Shown here one piece after another: positions 1 to 7,431 of a DNA stretch of 22,031 nt. The translations under genes and the position numbers were made by a program. This DNA is from an uncultured Planctomycetota bacterium (GTDB lineage: Bacteria > Planctomycetota > PUPC01). The stretch covers positions 1 through 22,031 of the forward strand of contig CAYLQD010000063.1 of assembly GCA_964385685.1 (NCBI GenBank), read 5' to 3'. Every line of letters begins with the position of its first letter. The stretch's first letter is position 1. Under the pieces are notes generated by a model. It was given only the letters and a program-made list of their open reading frames with translations. It had not been told where the DNA came from and did no database searches.

Positions 1-168
1 GGCGGAGGCGACAGGAGGCGAGCCAACGGCCCTCTTGCGGCCTGCGGCCGCCCGGACGGAGTCCGGGCCACCCGACGACGAGCCGGAGGCGACAGGAGGT
101 GGGGCAGCGGCCCTCTTGCGGCCTGCGGCCGCCCGGACGGAGTCCGGGCCACCCGACGACGGGGCGCT
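1..168. repeat. two or more tandem copies of an 84-bp unit inside the 3' (C-terminal) part of the lyase gene; the window starts mid-array
   Basis: gccggaggcgacaggagg...ggccctcttgcggcctgcggccgcccggacggagtccgggccacccgacgacg occurs twice with only a ~9-nt variable block. On the minus strand it encodes the repeated peptide SSGGPDSVRAAAGRKRA(A/V)...PPVAS(G/A). Confidence 0.8.
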
Positions 169-2319
169 CGACAAGCGGTTCTCAGCACGGGGCCCCCGCA
201 TCGGCTCGATGAGGGTGACGAGAAGCTGGTCGCCCTGTCCCTCCCAACTCGCGTGCACGTCGACGGCCGGGACTGGCGGGGCCCGGTGGTGACGCTTGTA
301 CCAGCCACGCGGCGTTGGCTTCTTCCGGCCGTAGAACTTCTCGTACGTCAGCTTCTTCTCACCGAAATGATAGAGGGCGACGTTCGGCCCGTCGGGATCG
401 CGGGTCACAAGCCGCTGCCCGGCGGCGTCGATGTGGACCTCGCCTTCCTTGTAGAGGTGGGCGAAGTTCCATAGCTGGCTGTACCGGTGCCTCGTCTCCG
501 CGTCGAGCCGGTCGATGACGATCCAGAGCCTCTGCTTCCGGAGGAAGATGACCTTCCGGTTGTGGACGACGTCGCCGACCTTCGGCTTCTCCTTGCCGGG
601 GCCGTAGCCCTCGCGGAACCAGCCCTCGGCGAGGTCGAAATACTCCGACGTGTGCCAGAGAGCCTGGATCGGTTTGCTGTAGTCTTTGCCTTTGCCGGAG
701 CCGCGGACCTGCGTGAGCCCGTCGACGACAACGGTGTTGTGGGCGAAGGACGTGGGCATGTATCCGTGGGCGAACGTGAACGTGTAGTTCGTCGGCCCGG
801 AGTCGATCAGCATCGTGCGGCCGAACGCGGTGACCTGGATGCTGTTGGCGTCTTCCGTGCGGTGGCCGGTGCCGGGCCGGCTGCTCTTGAGGAACAGGTG
901 GCGGGCGTCGCCGGTCCATCCGTCGCGCATAATGGTGTAGCCGCCGTGGGGGAAGGCGACGGACGTGAACGCGGGCGGCGGGCCCTTCCCGGCGAAGACG
1001 TGGTCGAAGATCCGATCGACCAGCGGGTCCGGCAGCCACCGGCGGGGCTGCCCGTGCTTCTTTACCGGGTCGCCGTAGGGCTGCTGGTCGACGCCGGGCA
1101 GCAACTCCCTCTGCATCACGCCGGAGGGACGCAGCATGCTGTTCAGGAATCGGTAGCGCATCATCGCCGCGTCGCGCGTGCGCTCGGCCCATTCGGGGAC
1201 TCGGTTCCCCTGCGCCATGAGATGGATCACCGCCTCCACGTTGGGAAGCAGCGCGGTGTTGTAGCCGAACGACTGCTCCTTGTCCGAGCCGTCGGGCAGG
1301 ACGGAGTCGCCGGAGACGTGCCGGATGATTCTCTCGCCGGTGAACGCCAGCCACGCGTCGGCCCGCTTGCAGTCCGGGAGCGCGAGCGCGAGCTTGATGA
1401 GCCCCTGGTTGGCGACGAGTTGCTGGTTCGACGCCTCCGGGTAGCGCCCGTCCACCACGATCCGGTCGGCGTGCTCGTCGATCATGCCGACGAGGATGTT
1501 GGCGAGCGCGGTGCCGGAGATGGCCTCCCTGGTCTTCTCCGGAAGCTTCCTGGCGGCCAGGGAAAAGCCGCTGAGACAGTAGTTCATCCGCCAGCCGATG
1601 TAGAGGCCGGCGTATTCGCTGCAGTCGATGGCGTTGTACTTGAGCAAGTCGCCGGCCTTCTCGATGTCCTTGTAGGCCGGGCTGTGGCGCAGGGCGAAGT
1701 CCTCCCACACCGCGGCCCAGTACGTGAGGTATTTCGGGTCGCCGGCGCTCGGGACGTGTTCGCCCTTCGCGTAGGCCATCATCAGGGGCCTGAGCCAGCC
1801 GAGGGTGCTGAGGTGCGTGGCAAAGTCGCGGTTCGAGCTGTCGTTCAGTCCGTGGCTCACGTCCTTCGGCTGCCCGATCACCGCGTCGATCTTGATCTTG
1901 TACCAGTCGATCCTGCCCGGCTTGCCGATAGTGTTGCGGGAGCGCCCGCGAGCGTGCCGGTCGATCTGGACGATTCCCGCGAGCAGGTCCTCCGGCGTGG
2001 TGTCTCCATTCGGCCAGCCACCGACCCACCCGAAATCGAGCTTGGCGAGGCGTTCGACGAAGATATCGCGGTAGGCGTCGAGGGCCCGCTCGTACTTCTT
2101 GGCGCGATAGAGGCGGCTGACCTCGCGGAGTTCCGGGGCGTCGAGATTCATGTGTGCGAAGAACCGGTCGGCGACGAGGCGGGGCCGCTGGCCGAGGCGA
2201 TAGGCCGTCTCGGCGGCGGGGGACTCGACGGTCAGCGGGTGCGCGCATCCTGCGCCCAGCAGGAGCGCCACGGCCAGAGCCAGCCAGGTCCCCTCGACGC
2301 GGCTCGGGGCCGCAGGCAC
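1..2319 (-). CDS. heparinase II/III-like polysaccharide lyase family protein; the 3' end runs off the window start and the 5' start is uncertain
   Basis: The minus-strand frame that is the exact antisense of the listed + ORF 487..2829 is open from position 1 up to a TAG at 2623-2625. It is missing from the ORF track because it has no stop codon inside the window. Hand translation reads as a real protein: ...SRVEGTWLALAVALLLGAGCAHPLTVES... (signal-peptide-like), ...LRPSGVMQRELLPGVDQQPYGDPVKKHGQPRRWLPDPLVDRIFDHVFAGKG..., and ...SSRPGTGHRTEDANSIQVTAFGRTMLIDSGP.... The segment GHRTEDANSIQV follows an H-x3-D-x2-S pattern reminiscent of the HxHxDxxSF motif of the heparinase II/III / alginate-lyase C-terminal domain. 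The + 780-aa ORF has roughly 95% G/C at codon position 1 and almost no K/N/I/F/Y/W, which marks it as an antisense artefact. Start placed at the GTG at 2317-2319 (MPAAPSRVEGTW...) because the 2330-2620 stretch is low-GC and translates to K/G-rich non-protein-like sequence. An in-frame ATG at 2595 is the alternative start. Confidence 0.5.
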   Translation of the reverse strand, partial: MPAAPSRVEGTWLALAVALLLGAGCAHPLTVESPAAETAYRLGQRPRLVADRFFAHMNLDAPELREVSRLYRAKKYERALDAYRDIFVERLAKLDFGWVGGWPNGDTTPEDLLAGIVQIDRHARGRSRNTIGKPGRIDWYKIKIDAVIGQPKDVSHGLNDSSNRDFATHLSTLGWLRPLMMAYAKGEHVPSAGDPKYLTYWAAVWEDFALRHSPAYKDIEKAGDLLKYNAIDCSEYAGLYIGWRMNYCLSGFSLAARKLPEKTREAISGTALANILVGMIDEHADRIVVDGRYPEASNQQLVANQGLIKLALALPDCKRADAWLAFTGERIIRHVSGDSVLPDGSDKEQSFGYNTALLPNVEAVIHLMAQGNRVPEWAERTRDAAMMRYRFLNSMLRPSGVMQRELLPGVDQQPYGDPVKKHGQPRRWLPDPLVDRIFDHVFAGKGPPPAFTSVAFPHGGYTIMRDGWTGDARHLFLKSSRPGTGHRTEDANSIQVTAFGRTMLIDSGPTNYTFTFAHGYMPTSFAHNTVVVDGLTQVRGSGKGKDYSKPIQALWHTSEYFDLAEGWFREGYGPGKEKPKVGDVVHNRKVIFLRKQRLWIVIDRLDAETRHRYSQLWNFAHLYKEGEVHIDAAGQRLVTRDPDGPNVALYHFGEKKLTYEKFYGRKKPTPRGWYKRHHRAPPVPAVDVHASWEGQGDQLLVTLIEPMRGPRAENRLSSAPSSGGPDSVRAAAGRKRAAAPPPVASGSSSGGPDSVRAAAGRKRAVGSPPVASA

Positions 2320-2819
2320 GTTGCTCGATGTGAAGCCGAGGAAAAAGGGAAAAATGGGAGAATGGGAAAGGGGACCTCTACCAGACCCAGCACCCTCATT
2401 GTGGGGTGTCTGGCGGAAACTCGGGACAGCCAGCGGGTGGCAGTCCCCACTTTCCACCGCGCCTCGCGGCGGCAGCGCAGGCGAAAAACGGGGACTGGCA
2501 CCAGCGAAGCGAACGGAGTGAGCGTAGACGTGCCTGTACCCGCTTTTCGCCCCGGAAGGTCTTTCCCCTTTTCCCTCTTTCCCCGTTTTCCTCATCTTAC
2601 ACCCGGGAGAATTGATCTCCGCCTACACGAAGAGCGTAGGCAAGAACGCACCCGTTGTCAAGGACAGCGGCGGAGGGTGAGCATCCCGGAGATTGCGTGG
2701 TTTGTGCAGGGTCGCGATCTTCGGGAATACGCCGCGGCGAGCGCGCAGGGACTGACCGGTCATGAACCGGTTATCAGCATCGGTTGGGAAGCGGGTGGCT
2801 TCGCTTGGCGGCTGACGGC

Positions 2820-3425
2820 CTACGCGTAGTCGGTGGCTCTGTCAGGACGCTCGGCGCCGGCAATCGCGCCAAGGACGAAGCCGCGAAGGAAGCACGCAAA
2901 GAGCCACGCCTCGGCTTCACTGAAAGGATTCTCGGCGCCGGCGAAGGCAATGCCCCCGTGTTGGGTCACGTATTTCCTCGGCCTCTTTGTGTCCCGCATC
3001 AACTCATGCCCGACCTCGTGGGCGATGATTGCGAAGAACTTGGCCTGTGCTCTTTTGGCCCGCTTATCATCGTTGGCGGCCTCTCGCAGGATCTCGGCGT
3101 GGATGTCCTTGTCAATAACGATGGTCGGCTTGGCCCCCTTCTTGAGTATCGCAAGCCAGGAAACGTACCCACGAATGGGCAAGAGTTGGTCCGATACTGG
3201 AAGCCAGCTATCGATGGAAGCTTGCCTAGCTATGGACGTCCGCAGGCGCACAGGTCTCAGCCAGTCCCACGGAGCGAACGGTTCGTCGCGATGATACGTC
3301 TCGCCGACGACAAATTTGTGCGCCGCGTGCATGGCTCGGGCAACCGAACCGCGACCCTCGAGTTTCTTGAAGGTCTTAATCCATGCGTCGCGTTTGGGCG
3401 CGACGGGATCCGGCTTCCGAGTCAC
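2820..3425 (-). CDS. ImmA/IrrE-family (COG2856-like) HExxH zinc metallopeptidase
   Basis: 201 aa. Contains ...KRAQAKFFAIIAHEVGHELMRD..., i.e. an HExxH motif in the F-x-h-AHE-h-GH context typical of ImmA/IrrE peptidases, followed about 30 residues later by a Glu-rich helix (AENPFSEAEAWLFA) as expected for the third metal ligand. GTG start at 3425 is preceded by GGGGAG 5 nt upstream. The stop TAG of the upstream gene (3436-3438) overlaps this Shine-Dalgarno site, implying translational coupling. Confidence 0.6.
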   Translation of the reverse strand: MTRKPDPVAPKRDAWIKTFKKLEGRGSVARAMHAAHKFVVGETYHRDEPFAPWDWLRPVRLRTSIARQASIDSWLPVSDQLLPIRGYVSWLAILKKGAKPTIVIDKDIHAEILREAANDDKRAKRAQAKFFAIIAHEVGHELMRDTKRPRKYVTQHGGIAFAGAENPFSEAEAWLFACFLRGFVLGAIAGAERPDRATDYA

Positions 3426-3435
3426 TTCTGCTCCC

Positions 3436-3855
3436 CTACTCAGGAAACTGGTTCAGACACTCGGCGATGTAGTGAAGGTGGACGACGGCTCGCTCGAAGG
3501 AGGGTTGGTCCGGAGGAATCTCAACCGGGTCTGGCCTCGACGCAGCTGCATACAGCCCAATCCCGTCCTTGCGCAGCTCTTCAAAGACCCGATGTATCTC
3601 AGAGTCAGGAATGTCAGGATCGAGAGGAAAGAGTTGATCGAGTCCAATACTGAGCACGACTCCGAGGATTTCAAGTTCGGCGGATCGAAAGACTTCCTTG
3701 GCTGTCTTGAGTCGTTGCAGGCGAGTTGGCTCAATACCGGCCAAATAATCCACCCGTTCATCCGTGACTCCAAACTCCTGCTGGGCTCCGTCCACCAGAG
3801 CGGCGAACTCAGCGGACTTTTCTGCGACGTCAATGCGTTTTCTGAATGGCGTCAT
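3436..3855 (-). CDS. hypothetical 139-aa protein, upstream partner of the ImmA-like peptidase; no obvious helix-turn-helix
   Basis: The track ORF 3436..3933 begins at a TTG. The internal ATG at 3853-3855 (MTPFRKRIDVAEKS...) is preceded by GGGAGCGG at a 7-nt spacing, so I prefer that start. Acidic, helical-looking sequence. Near the C-terminus lies ...ERAVVHLHYIAECL (an R-x5-H arrangement). G+C is lower than in the flanking DNA. Confidence 0.5.
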   Translation of the reverse strand: MTPFRKRIDVAEKSAEFAALVDGAQQEFGVTDERVDYLAGIEPTRLQRLKTAKEVFRSAELEILGVVLSIGLDQLFPLDPDIPDSEIHRVFEELRKDGIGLYAAASRPDPVEIPPDQPSFERAVVHLHYIAECLNQFPE

Positions 3856-4489
3856 TTGTCCGCTCCCAGCAGAATCGAGTGTTTGGAAACGAGTGTTCAG
3901 TAGCGGTTTCTTACGCAGCAAATCCCATGCCAAGAGCAGGTGGCGCCGGAGGACAGTTTCTTAACCACTTCTCCTGTAAGCGGATAGAGCTTGCCGAATT
4001 CCTTGGATATCTACTACGCTGCACGCGCGAGTGTTTCCGTGGGTCAACATGAACCGGCTCCAGCGTTGCCAGGGAACAACAGAGAACCAACGGAGTCACG
4101 GTGCAGGAAATTCGCCACAGAGCATCGGGGGGTTGACAAGGCCAAGGCTGACTGTCTCCCGGACATGCAGGCGAAGAATCTGGGGCCGACCGTCGCTGCA
4201 CGTATGTTTAGGATTACGCTAATCTTATCCTCCAGCCGGCGCCTGTCAAGAACAAAATCGCAGGTACTTGCGCACGCTCTCTTGAAACGTATATCGTCAT
4301 GAAAACGGACATTCTTGAGAGCAAAGGGCTTCGGGGTGGAGCGAGGTCATCGGTCGCTCCAAGCCCGCTGCCCCGACAAGATCGGCGCGCCGCGTCTGCC
4401 AGAGGCCGGACGGCCTGCTCGCGCGGCGCGGTGTGGGGCGTCGTTGATGCCGGGGAGCGCGGCGATCAGGTCGTTCTTGATGTGGGGCC

Positions 4490-5533
4490 TCAGCGCCCGA
4501 CGGTTTTGACGCCGGTTTTCTCGCTGGGGTCTTCGATCTCTTCGACGATGTTGTGGCCGGAGCCGAAGAGCTTCTTGCGCTGCTCTTGGGCGTCGCGCCA
4601 CTCCTCAGGACTGTACGTCTGGCCGGGCTGGGCGAACTCCGCGCGCTCGCTCCGCGGCGGGACGGGCCGCTCCTCGGGGCCGTCGTAGTCCTCCTTCGGC
4701 GTCAACTCCTCGCCCAGCCGCGTCGTGCCGTCGCGCTCGACTTCCTCGATGTAGTGGGCGCCGGCGGCGAACGAACGCGCGACGGCCAGGATGGCCCACG
4801 TCGCCTCCGGGCTGAACCCCAGGTCCATCATGACCGCGCCGGTCGCTCCGAGCATGTCGATGTCGACCGGCTCCGCGCTCGCCGCCTGCGCGGCCTTGAC
4901 GATCTCGTGCAGGAAGGCGACGTGCCGGCCCGCGACGCCGAGCGTCTCGGCGCGCGCGACCAGCCGCTTCGCGGCCGGGTCCCGCAGCATGAGGTCGGAG
5001 ACGCCGAGCGCCTCGCTGTCGAGGTTCTCCGCGACGAGCGCGGTCGCCATCTCCGCGGGCGTCTTGCCCTCCTCGCCGGCCCGCGCGAGATAATCGCGGA
5101 GCATGTTGCCGAAGGCCGAGAAGGCGCCGTAGGCGTGGCCGAACGCGAGGACGGACGCGCCGCAGGCCTGCGTGAGGAAGGTCTTCGAGCGGGCGACGAT
5201 CCGCGACATCGCGGCCGGCATCGACATCCCGTCCTCGAGCCCGAGGAGCATGACGCAGTTGAGCATCTGCTCCTCCTCGACAAGCGGGATCCGCGCCTGG
5301 AAATCGACGAAGAGGATGTCGACGAGCCCGTAGCCGCGCTCGACCAGCTCGGTCGTGTCGTAGCCGCGGGCGACGATGCGGTGCACGTTCTTGTAGGCGA
5401 TCTCCGAGACCCACCGGAACGGCTTCCGCTTCGTGTCCGGCGGGACCGTGCCAACTTCGCGCGTCGAGTAGTCGTAGGGCAGCCGCTCGTCGTCGAGGTT
5501 CCCGATGACCTTGTCGTCGTCTAGATGACCCAC
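4490..5533 (-). CDS. citrate synthase-family protein (divergent; citryl-CoA-lyase-like size), paralogue 1
   Basis: The region ...FRWVSEIAYKNVHRIVARGYDTTELVERGYGLVDILFVDFQARIPLVEEEQML... matches the conserved citrate-synthase N-terminal signature (t-IS-iDg..g.L.YRGY.I.dL.e...feEv.yLLl.G.LP...E). A later segment, AFGHAYGAF... LGVSDLMLRDPAAK, resembles the GFGH-x-VYK-x-DPRA region, but Ser replaces the catalytic His. The track ORF 4490..5752 carries an R/P-rich N-terminal run-in. I place the start at the GTG at 5531-5533 (VGHLDDDKVIGN...), with GGAAGGAG 10 nt upstream, overlapping the stop of the upstream paralogue by 13 bp. Confidence 0.5.
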   Translation of the reverse strand: MGHLDDDKVIGNLDDERLPYDYSTREVGTVPPDTKRKPFRWVSEIAYKNVHRIVARGYDTTELVERGYGLVDILFVDFQARIPLVEEEQMLNCVMLLGLEDGMSMPAAMSRIVARSKTFLTQACGASVLAFGHAYGAFSAFGNMLRDYLARAGEEGKTPAEMATALVAENLDSEALGVSDLMLRDPAAKRLVARAETLGVAGRHVAFLHEIVKAAQAASAEPVDIDMLGATGAVMMDLGFSPEATWAILAVARSFAAGAHYIEEVERDGTTRLGEELTPKEDYDGPEERPVPPRSERAEFAQPGQTYSPEEWRDAQEQRKKLFGSGHNIVEEIEDPSEKTGVKTVGR

Positions 5534-6507: not shown

Positions 6508-6638
6508 GGTGCGGCTCCTCTTGTGTGAGTTCCCGGGCTTCCCGCGGCCAGCGGTGCCGGTCAGGCGATGGGCGCGCCGTGGTGCAGCGCAACGCGGTCG
6601 CTTGTCAGCGAGCCGGGCCGGCGCGTGCCTCTAACTCA

Positions 6639-6669
6639 ATTATAAGTCATTGTCGGCGCACGGGTGTCG
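6639..6669 (-). promoter_or_regulatory. candidate sigma-70 promoter for the citrate-synthase-like operon: TATAAT -10 with a weak CCGACA -35 at a 19-nt spacer
   Basis: The minus-strand sense reads ...ccgacacccgtgcgccgacaatgacTTATAATtgagttagagg.... This gives a perfect extended -10, about 130 nt upstream of the ATG at 6507. The -35 is poor. Confidence 0.3.
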
Positions 6670-6790
6670 GAAATGAGCGCGAAGGTGTGGTGGCTGCGCG
6701 TTCTCGTCGGCGGGGTGGTCCTTGGCCGCCGAGCGGGGCTCGGGGGCACTCGAGCGGCGCCTCATGTCTCATGTCCCACGGTCATGCATG

Positions 6791-6806
6791 TGTACCATAT
6801 GGTACA
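6791..6806. promoter_or_regulatory. perfect 16-bp palindrome TGTACCATATGGTACA (TGTA-N8-TACA), copy 1; candidate dimeric transcription-factor operator
   Basis: Exact inverted repeat in a comparatively AT-rich stretch of a 920-bp intergenic region. An identical copy lies 122 bp away. Confidence 0.5.
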
Positions 6807-6912
6807 TTAATAACGCATTTCTGCAGGAGACTCCGCATGCGTGTTATGTTCTAAGAGCATATTTTATCTAGTATTACGGAGCTGATCGGCGGGAACAGGA
6901 AGGCGTAGATTT

Positions 6913-6928
6913 TGTACCATATGGTACA
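6913..6928. promoter_or_regulatory. perfect 16-bp palindrome TGTACCATATGGTACA, copy 2
   Basis: Identical to copy 1. The interval between the two copies contains a further imperfect inverted repeat, AATAACGCAT-N18-ATGCGTGTTAT. Confidence 0.5.
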
Positions 6929-7286
6929 TAAACTGAGCCTTTCTGTTGCGGGGAAGGGCGAGCGACAAGAGGGAACTGCCTCGTCCTCTTGTTCGCTCCC
7001 GCCTTCGCCCTTCGACAAGCTGAGTGCCCGCGGAGGCGGGCAAGGTTCGGCGGACAAGTCGCGGACCCGGACGAAGTTCGGGCCACCCGGAGGCGGTGTG
7101 GCCTTCCCGCGGCTGCCGGTGTGGACGACGAACCATGCGAACTCGTGGGTGAAGACGAGCGCTTATTGAGGTCCATGTTGGTAATGGAATCGCGGCAGCT
7201 TATCAAGAGATTCTTCGCTGACGCTCAGAATGACAGAACTATAGGTCACACAATGAGACATGTCATCCTGAGCGAAGCGAAGTTCA

Positions 7287-7321
7287 CCCGCCCAAGGCGG
7301 GCTTGCCCGCCGCGCAGGCGG
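7287..7321. other. two adjacent GC hairpins with identical stems (CCCGCC-caa-GGCGGG and CCCGCC-gcgca-GGCGGG), 110-145 nt 3' of the flotillin gene
   Basis: Read directly from the sequence. No U-tract follows on either strand. They may act as a terminator or stabiliser for the 7432..9654 transcript. Confidence 0.3.
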
Positions 7322-7431
7322 GGACCTCTGTTGTTCCTCGCTGATGTTCCATTATCAGCATGGAGTTCAATAGAGCGGCGGCGCGGGCGGCGTTGAGGAG
7401 CTTGGTGCCCATGACGTCGCAGATGCCGGCG

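What the first reader, a model, noticed from the sequence alone, without database searches (positions are those of the whole stretch)
2330..4300. Low-G+C islet carrying a translationally coupled unknown-protein / ImmA-IrrE metallopeptidase pair; candidate immunity, toxin-antitoxin or defence module
G+C drops visibly between the lyase and the citrate-synthase-like operon. Example: 3436-3933 is roughly 53% G+C against roughly 68-70% in flanking genes. The only genes here are a 139-aa protein and, 10 bp downstream with its Shine-Dalgarno site overlapping the upstream stop, an HExxH ImmA/IrrE-type peptidase. ImmA/IrrE peptidases normally partner an XRE helix-turn-helix repressor in phage or ICE immunity and in several recently described anti-phage systems. 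Here the partner has no recognisable HTH, so the pairing may represent an uncharacterised variant. Long non-coding flanks of about 490 bp (2330-2819) and 550 bp (3934-4489) surround it.
Basis: partly seen in the sequence, partly recalled or inferred. Interest (0 to 1): 0.6.

Follow-up and report, generated by a model that had tools for sequence, protein, structure and literature searches.

The report
Divergent repressor–protease switch gene pair
The low-G+C islet holds an ordinary kind of two-gene switch: a DNA-binding repressor followed by the zinc protease that probably cuts it, in a rare and very divergent version that standard annotation libraries miss, and with no obvious genes under its control.

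Summary
Window 2901-4450 is the deepest and longest low-G+C stretch (minimum 0.528 against a mean of 0.661). It contains only two minus-strand genes: A (3436-3855, 139 aa) and B (2820-3425, 201 aa). They are 10 nt apart, and B's ribosome-binding site abuts A's stop codon.

This is therefore the canonical XRE repressor plus COG2856/M78 protease pair, not a new pairing. The family is tiny: 34 clusters among 1.84 billion proteins, one of them named as Phycisphaerae. A-then-B is kept in 15 distinct loci, in unrelated chromosomal contexts, with G+C below the flanks. No integrase, phage or defence genes lie nearby.

Most likely B cleaves A's C-terminal region to derepress the operon. The signal and the regulon are unknown. 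This is a new member of a known kind, of low to moderate interest.

The parts
3436..3855 (-). Gene A: 139-aa XRE-family helix-turn-helix protein, the predicted repressor and protease substrate
   Evidence: The reading frame and GGGAG ribosome-binding site are. The same 139-aa call was made by ENA, JGI and NCBI. The AF2 model has pLDDT 89. The fold is XRE. There are 20 family members, and 11 of them hit HTH_3.
3655..3828 (-). HTH DNA-binding domain of A (residues about 10-67)
3454..3606 (-). C-terminal region of A (residues 84-134): helix 84-96, a variable low-confidence loop, and a conserved last helix (FERxVVxLHxxAECL). Inferred to hold the dimerisation surface and the cleavage site.
   Evidence: Secondary structure and the pLDDT dip in block 101-110 (mean 53; block 111-120, 75) are. 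The topology parallels DdrO and CapH, which are cut in this part of the protein (PMC6868357; bioRxiv 10.1101/2022.04.27.489752).
3426..3435 (-). 10-nt A-B spacer carrying B's ribosome-binding site (GGGAG, 3435-3431), directly after A's TAG stop
   Evidence: Read directly from the sequence. Short spacing or overlap between A and B is also seen in relatives.
2820..3425 (-). Gene B: 201-aa single-domain zinc metallopeptidase with an ImmA/IrrE (M78/COG2856)-like fold
3006..3020 (-). HEVGH (H136, E137, H140): catalytic and zinc-binding motif of B
   Evidence: Sequence. Invariant in the close family. H136 and E137 are conserved in at least 90% of 32 members, and H140 in all of them.
2916..2918 (-). 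E170 of B (motif SEAEAWLFA): predicted third zinc ligand
   Evidence: The profile alignment to CapP places it on CapP E129, the crystallographic zinc ligand (bioRxiv 10.1101/2022.04.27.489752). It is conserved in all 14 B copies that reach this motif.
3872..3897 (-). Two tandem AACACTCG(T/A)TTC repeats 17-43 nt upstream of A's ATG, with a third AACACTCG at 4028-4035. A candidate operator, held with low confidence.
   Evidence: The only three AACACTCG copies in 22 kb all lie here on the same strand. The motif is not shared with the upstream regions of relatives.
4222..4249 (-). The only sigma-70-like promoter match in the islet (TTGACA-16-TAAGAT), 367 nt upstream of A
   Evidence: This is a consensus match only; function is not shown.

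Best explanation
The islet is a horizontally acquired, self-contained two-gene operon. Gene A encodes an XRE-family repressor. Gene B encodes its cognate ImmA/IrrE-type (COG2856/M78-like) zinc metallopeptidase.

Shown:
- A has an XRE DNA-binding domain followed by two C-terminal helices joined by a variable loop.
- B has the M78-like fold, with an intact HExxH and a third glutamate ligand.
- The two genes are adjacent with short spacing (or overlap) in 15 distinct loci, and they diverge in step.

Inferred, by analogy with ImmR/ImmA, DdrO/IrrE and CapH/CapP:
- A dimerises through its C-terminal helices and represses its own promoter, and possibly unlinked targets.
- On some stress signal, B cuts A in the C-terminal loop or last-helix region. 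That would destroy dimerisation and DNA binding and derepress transcription.

[quoted passage not shown] Its activating signal is unknown. No cargo genes accompany the pair, so it is most likely an orphan or autonomous switch descended from a mobile-element immunity module.
For: - The two genes form a unit. A-then-B occurs in every locus long enough to show it, 15 distinct pairs in all. A distant branch is also paired (hhalign probability 97.3%). Divergence of A and B is correlated (Mantel r 0.62, p <= 2e-4).
- The pair appears mobile. Neighbours differ in every context, and its G+C is below the flanks in the window and in L001, L009 and L011.
Against: - No sequence library places B in M78. 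Sub-threshold hits favour M48 (12 of 32 members) over M78 (4 of 32).
- Cleavage, DNA binding and autoregulation are untested.
- No operator motif is shared among the upstream regions of relatives.
- The only candidate operator consists of direct repeats, not inverted ones.
- No regulated cargo was found.
- Some COG2856 proteins act without cleaving their partner (PMC6868357).
- In one lineage A carries an in-frame stop codon while B is intact, so the module can decay.
Confidence: 0.6

Rival explanations
1. A toxin-antitoxin-like selfish cassette (the 'Xre-COG2856' pair predicted by Makarova et al. 2009). B would be a proteolytic toxin acting on cellular targets, and A would be the antitoxin and autorepressor.
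For: The pair is a small, closely spaced bicistronic module with the HTH gene first. It sits in variable contexts with deviating G+C. In L001 it lies within about 4 kb of a HipBA module. Xre-COG2856 is listed as a predicted toxin-antitoxin-like pair (PMC2701414).
Against: In L011, L012 and L023-L025, A has an in-frame TGA at the conserved R45 while B keeps all its catalytic residues. That is hard to reconcile with a lethal toxin. Over-expressed pneumococcal COG2856 proteins were not toxic (PMC4257102). Makarova et al. themselves favoured a regulatory protease. There is no PADLOC hit.
Confidence: 0.15
2. A stranded, functionless remnant of a prophage or integrative-element immunity region (of the ImmR/ImmA type), left behind after the element was lost.
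For: G+C and GC3 are low. Long gene-free flanks (500 and 634 nt) could be decayed element DNA. A distant branch of the same pair lies 1.3 kb from a Terminase_6N gene. One lineage carries a nonsense codon in A.
Against: Both reading frames are intact here, with conserved catalytic and C-terminal motifs across 29-60% identical copies in 15 loci. That pattern indicates purifying selection. None of about 10 longer contexts shows an integrase or phage genes. No copy was found in IMG/VR viral contigs.
Confidence: 0.15
3. A CapH/CapP-like regulator of an anti-phage defence operon, or itself part of a defence system.
For: CapP is the top structural and sequence neighbour of B. The CapH N-terminal domain is among A's hits.
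Against: There is no divergently transcribed or adjacent defence operon in the window or in relatives. Neighbours are citrate-synthase-like, heparinase-like, glycoside hydrolase and transporter genes. There is no PADLOC hit. B lacks the GAF domain that forms CapP's single-stranded-DNA groove (bioRxiv 10.64898/2026.05.16.725639).
Confidence: 0.05

Closest known systems
ImmR/ImmA of Bacillus subtilis ICEBs1 (XRE repressor plus minimal COG2856 anti-repressor protease)
   Different: ImmR/ImmA sit beside an integrase inside a mobile element whose genes they control (my own knowledge and PMC2701414). Here no element genes are present. There is no detectable sequence similarity, and A's C-terminal region is unrelated.
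CapH/CapP (DNA-damage-responsive regulators of CBASS and other defence operons)
   Different: CapP has a linker and a GAF domain that form the single-stranded-DNA groove, and often a cysteine-switch loop. B has neither (201 aa against 278). There is no associated defence operon and no PADLOC hit.
DdrO/IrrE (PprI) radiation and desiccation response switch of Deinococcus
   Different: IrrE is a three-domain protein with a GAF domain. ddrO and irrE are unlinked core genes controlling a chromosomal regulon. Here the genes are adjacent and separated by only 10 nt, patchily distributed and compositionally foreign.
Predicted Xre-COG2856 toxin-antitoxin-like modules (Makarova, Wolf and Koonin 2009)
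   Same: Both are stand-alone two-gene cassettes of an Xre HTH protein plus a Zn protease of about 160-200 aa, with a mobile, patchy distribution (PMC2701414).
   Different: That class is defined by COG2856/PF06114 sequence membership, which B does not reach. Toxicity has never been shown for the class (PMC4257102).

Membership tests
ImmA/IrrE metallopeptidase (Pfam Peptidase_M78 PF06114 / COG2856) | HExxH zinc-binding and catalytic motif | tested here: met
   HEVGH at residues 136-140. It is invariant in the close family. H136 and E137 are conserved in at least 90% of 32 members, and H140 in all of them.
ImmA/IrrE metallopeptidase (Pfam Peptidase_M78 PF06114 / COG2856) | Third zinc ligand: a Glu about 29-30 residues after the second His, in an ExxAxxFA helix | tested here: met
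   E170, in SEAEAWLFA, aligns with CapP E129. It is conserved in all 14 B copies that reach this motif.
ImmA/IrrE metallopeptidase (Pfam Peptidase_M78 PF06114 / COG2856) | Significant match to the family's sequence model | tested here: not met
   The window protein has no Pfam hit at E <= 1. Only 4 of 32 relatives hit PF06114, with a best E of 0.015, below the curated cut-off. M48 is hit more often (12 of 32). NCBIfam gives nothing.
ImmA/IrrE metallopeptidase (Pfam Peptidase_M78 PF06114 / COG2856) | Fold closest to solved family members | tested here: met
ImmA/IrrE metallopeptidase (Pfam Peptidase_M78 PF06114 / COG2856) | Genetically linked XRE-family partner | tested here: met
   A lies directly upstream of B in 15 distinct loci. 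A has an XRE fold.
ImmA/IrrE metallopeptidase (Pfam Peptidase_M78 PF06114 / COG2856) | Site-specific cleavage of the partner repressor | not testable with these tools
   This needs biochemistry or a complex prediction.
CapP/IrrE subgroup | C-terminal HTH-like linker plus GAF sensor domain | tested here: not met
   B is 201 aa and a single domain by secondary structure. Only 131 of CapP's 278 residues align.
XRE-family HTH regulator (gene A) | Five-helix Cro/cI-type HTH domain | tested here: met
XRE-family HTH regulator (gene A) | Match to Pfam HTH_3/HTH_31 | tested here: inconclusive
   The window protein gets only Xre-like-HTH at E 0.036-0.05, below the cut-off. Among 20 relatives, 11 hit HTH_3 (best 3.8e-7) and 10 hit HTH_31.
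CapH/CapP-type defence regulator | Adjacent regulated defence operon | tested here: not met
   No PADLOC hit. Neighbouring genes are metabolic or cell-envelope genes in every context.
Mobile-element immunity module (ImmR/ImmA type) | Located in an ICE or prophage next to integrase or element genes | tested here: not met
   No integrase, transposase or phage genes occur in the 22-kb window or in about 10 related contexts. None was found in IMG/VR. Only a distant branch lies near a terminase gene.
Type II toxin-antitoxin system | Toxic product neutralised by the co-encoded partner | not testable with these tools
   Indirect evidence argues against it. A is nonsense-mutated with B intact in one lineage. 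COG2856 proteins were non-toxic in a published test (PMC4257102).

The most novel reading that the evidence does not exclude
The pair is an autonomous, self-mobile stress switch. A minimal ImmA-like protease with no GAF domain, paired with an XRE repressor, would spread on its own between genomes such as that of Phycisphaerae. It would either act as a trans-acting regulator of a chromosomal stress regulon (a portable DdrO/IrrE analogue), or sense redox state or metal through the near-invariant CxxC in the repressor's last helix.
Probability: 0.15. Interest if true: 0.5.

Novelty: new member of a known kind. Interest (0 to 1): 0.27.

Why it matters
The find adds a small, very divergent clade to the XRE/COG2856 repressor-protease switches. 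Pfam, NCBIfam, PADLOC and PHROGs all miss it. It shows that 'HExxH protein with an unknown partner' calls can collapse into the canonical pair once family profiles and structure models are used. The cargo-less, compositionally foreign copies in at least one Phycisphaerae genome and related metagenomic contigs pose a modest open question: what does a stand-alone repressor-protease switch regulate, and what activates a protease that has no sensor domain? The system is known in kind and has no immediate wider consequence.

Tried and rejected
- Sequence libraries. Pfam, NCBIfam, PADLOC and PHROGs gave nothing significant for B. For A they gave only sub-threshold HTH hits.
- Single-sequence homologue searches found only 5 relatives of B and A itself. 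A profile search was needed to recover the A family.
- The profile of close B homologues against the PDB gave only noise. The broader profile found CapP.
- GTDB genome scans found nothing for B and only one Phycisphaerae genome assembled from a metagenome (a MAG) for A.
- IMG/VR scans for A and B were both empty, so a phage origin is not supported for the close family.
- The afdb50 fold library was unavailable.
- Rfam (gathering and E-value thresholds) and tRNA scans of the islet and the window found nothing relevant.
- No intrinsic terminator was found in 2200-4600.
- A search for a shared operator in the upstream regions of eight relatives found no common motif.
- Small accessory genes seen next to relatives (HTH_3 of 85 aa, plus 89-aa, 133-aa and 77-aa proteins) have no counterpart in the window flanks by tblastn.
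- HEPN, defence-system and CapH/CapP-regulated-operon readings were rejected on context and PADLOC.

Full report
**1. The observation**

All real genes in this part of the window lie on the minus strand. Two sit in the flagged interval.
- Gene A is 3436-3855: 139 aa from an ATG preceded by GGGAG, with 7 nt between that site and the ATG. The reading frame stays open back to a TTG at 3933, but homologues start at the ATG.
- Gene B is 2820-3425: 201 aa from a GTG.
- A's TAG stop (3438-3436) is followed by exactly 10 nt, GGGAGCAGAA, and then B's GTG.

ENA, JGI and NCBI gene calls on near-identical metagenome contigs give the same two genes. Nothing else is called between a citrate-synthase-like gene pair and a heparinase II/III-like gene. 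The gene-free flanks are 3856-4489 (634 nt) and 2320-2819 (500 nt). The heparinase-like gene most plausibly starts at GTG 2319, just before a lipoprotein-type signal sequence.

The G+C drop is real.
- 3436-3933 is 0.542, A is 0.55 and B is 0.60, against 0.669 for the rest of the window.
- In 500-nt windows (mean 0.661, sd 0.035), the run 2901-4450 is the longest and deepest low, with a minimum of 0.528.
- Third-codon-position G+C (GC3) is 0.58 for A and 0.72 for B, against 0.76-0.93 for 13 other genes of the window.

**2. What B is**

B has no hit in Pfam, PADLOC or PHROGs and only a meaningless one in NCBIfam.

The family is very small.
- The word-indexed search of 5.8 billion proteins found five clusters, one of which is the window's own protein.
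- An exhaustive profile search of 1.84 billion cluster representatives found 34.

Across the 32 aligned members, W90, H140 and W174 are invariant. S89, L91, H136, E137, G139, E170 and A173 are at least 90% conserved. This gives the pattern SWL ... HExGH ... ExxAW. Scanned one by one, relatives give only sub-threshold metallopeptidase hits: M48 in 12 of 32 (best 3.4e-4) and M78 in 4 of 32 (best 0.015).

These are all ImmA/IrrE-type domains. Every other zincin (selecase, M48, SprT/Wss1, YbeY and others) scores 5.1 or less.

The family profile's best PDB sequence hit is also CapP (E 0.017). That alignment runs from HExxH through the downstream helix and places B's E170 on CapP's E129. E129 is the crystallographic third zinc ligand (bioRxiv 10.1101/2022.04.27.489752). 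E170 is present in all 14 B copies that reach this motif, while the neighbouring E172 varies.

B is therefore an ImmA/IrrE-like gluzincin by fold and active-site geometry, although it lies outside the current sequence models. It is a single domain. It lacks the linker and GAF domains of CapP and IrrE, which build the single-stranded-DNA-sensing groove (bioRxiv 10.64898/2026.05.16.725639). In this respect it resembles the short ImmA type.

**3. What A is**

Alone, the window protein reaches only a sub-threshold Xre-like-HTH hit (E 0.036-0.05). The family-level evidence is clear.
- A profile of five partners hits a coherent series of XRE proteins at the same positions: C.BclI, the CapH N-terminal domain, HipB, lambda cI, C.AhdI and 434 repressor.
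- A profile search recovered 20 family members. NCBI names one 'helix-turn-helix transcriptional regulator [Phycisphaerae bacterium]'.
- Scanned individually, 11 of 20 hit HTH_3 (best 3.8e-7) and 10 hit HTH_31.
- The model (pLDDT 89) matches XRE domains with Foldseek probability 1.0.

After the HTH domain (residues about 10-67) the model has:
- a helix at 84-96;
- a variable loop in which model confidence falls (block means 53 and 75 for residues 101-110 and 111-120);
- a conserved terminal helix at 117-134, carrying FERxVVxLHxxAECL.

This layout parallels DdrO, which IrrE cuts in the loop between its last two helices (PMC6868357). It also parallels CapH, which has a two-helix dimerisation domain cut at F82|R83.

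**4. The pair as a unit**

- Every related locus long enough to show it has A followed directly by B. I count 15 distinct pairs. Gene calls and reading frames put the gap at about 10-70 nt, or overlapping as in L001. L015 breaks off just after A.
- A distant branch of the B family (P0042, P0048) also has an A-like gene upstream (hhalign probability 97.3%, E 2.5e-11).
- Pairwise identities of A and B across 13 pairs are correlated (Mantel r 0.62, permutation p <= 2e-4), as expected for a co-inherited or co-evolving unit.
- Neighbouring genes differ in every context: citrate-synthase-like and heparinase-like genes here, and elsewhere a transporter, glycoside hydrolases, fucose isomerase, PQQ-repeat and PEP-CTERM proteins.
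- No context includes an integrase, transposase, phage gene or defence operon.
- The pair's G+C is below its flanks in relatives too: L001 0.56 against 0.62, L009 0.54 against 0.63, L011 0.57 against 0.64.
- The family is absent from IMG/VR. It occurs in only one GTDB species representative, a Phycisphaerae genome assembled from a metagenome.
- The only phage link is in the distant branch, where the pair lies 1.3 kb from a Terminase_6N gene.

**5. Mechanism**

Shown: the domain identities, the intact catalytic site, and the conserved genetic linkage.

Inferred by analogy with ImmR/ImmA, DdrO/IrrE and CapH/CapP:
- A represses its own promoter, and perhaps unlinked genes, as a dimer held together by its C-terminal helices.
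- B, when activated, cuts A in the C-terminal loop or last-helix region and so relieves repression.

The signal is unknown, because B lacks the GAF domain and inter-domain groove that sense single-stranded DNA in CapP and PprI.

A weak operator candidate exists. The only three AACACTCG copies in the 22-kb window all lie on the coding strand within about 180 nt upstream of A's start. Two of them form a tandem 12-mer repeat at 3872-3897. They are direct repeats, however, and relatives share no such motif. The only promoter-like match is 367 nt upstream of A.

**6. Rivals**

- Toxin-antitoxin reading (the Xre-COG2856 pair of Makarova et al. 2009; PMC2701414). It fits the architecture and the mobility. 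It is weakened by a lineage, seen in three metagenome samples, in which A has an in-frame TGA at the conserved R45 while B is intact. It is also weakened by published non-toxicity of COG2856 proteins (PMC4257102).
- Dead remnant of a mobile-element immunity region. This is countered by intact frames and conserved motifs across copies that are 29-60% identical.
- CapH/CapP-style defence regulator. This is countered by gene context and by PADLOC.
- Non-proteolytic anti-repressor. This mode is known for some COG2856 proteins (PMC6868357) and cannot be excluded. The conserved catalytic residues argue for catalysis.

**7. Verdict**

The islet is real and compositionally foreign. Its content is the classical XRE repressor plus ImmA/IrrE-type protease pair, in a rare and highly divergent clade that annotation libraries miss. 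It is not a new kind of pairing. I rate it a new member of a known kind. It has a modest open question (what a cargo-less switch without a sensor domain controls) and low to moderate interest.

Noticed in passing
window 2325-2605 (between B's stop and the heparinase-like gene start): There is a ~270-nt imperfect inverted repeat. Its polypurine and polypyrimidine arms (2333-2370 and 2561-2598) enclose nested hairpins. As minus-strand RNA it folds at -143.7 kcal/mol, with z = -5.96 against shuffles. It has no Rfam match. It could be a structured RNA, a terminator or insulator, or a MITE-like insertion.
   Followed up: partly
L011 7851-8264 (also L012, L023, L024, L025): The A homologue carries an in-frame TGA where the family has its near-invariant R45. 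Gene callers therefore split it into 44-aa and 87-aa pieces. The downstream B homologue keeps HEAGH and the Glu ligand. The stop is seen in contigs from three samples, so it is probably a real nonsense mutation.
   Followed up: partly
L001 7119-7376 (also L002) and L035 18-245: In two separate branches, a small additional HTH_3/HTH_31 gene (85 aa and 75 aa) sits immediately upstream of the A-like gene. This gives a three-gene HTH - A - B variant. No counterpart exists in the window's upstream flank by tblastn.
   Followed up: partly
contig of GCA_041443045.1 carrying P0042 (no DNA held); L033 and L034 are the same pair: A distant branch of the A/B pair lies about 1.3 kb upstream of a Terminase_6N gene and a run of small same-strand genes. 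This is the only phage-like context seen for the family.
   Followed up: partly
A-family alignment A4, columns for window residues 130-133 (nt 3457-3468): The last helix of A carries a near-invariant CxxC (C-A-E-C) across the family. The window copy has Ile in place of the first Cys, and two other members also lack one Cys. Three members give weak zinc-ribbon hits in Pfam. The motif may bind metal or sense redox state.
   Followed up: no
window 6508-7431: This is the second low-G+C stretch (minimum 0.554). It is a gene-free gap of about 920 nt between the citrate-synthase-like operon and the Band_7 gene, with no Rfam or tRNA hit.
   Followed up: no
window 3876-3883, 3890-3897, 4028-4035: The only three AACACTCG copies in the 22-kb window cluster on one strand just upstream of gene A. 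Two of them are part of a tandem 12-mer repeat.
   Followed up: partly
L001 1984-3501: A HipA/HipB toxin-antitoxin module (HTH_3, Couple_hipA, HipA_C) lies about 4 kb from the A/B pair in that genome. This suggests a small cluster of mobile two-gene modules.
   Followed up: no
window 1-2319 and 2320-2595: The heparinase II/III-like gene runs off the window's left end. Three pipelines give it three different starts (887, 898 and 1006 aa). A lipobox-like LLGAGC just after GTG 2319 favours the 887-aa call. The 1006-aa call would read through the inverted-repeat element.
   Followed up: partly
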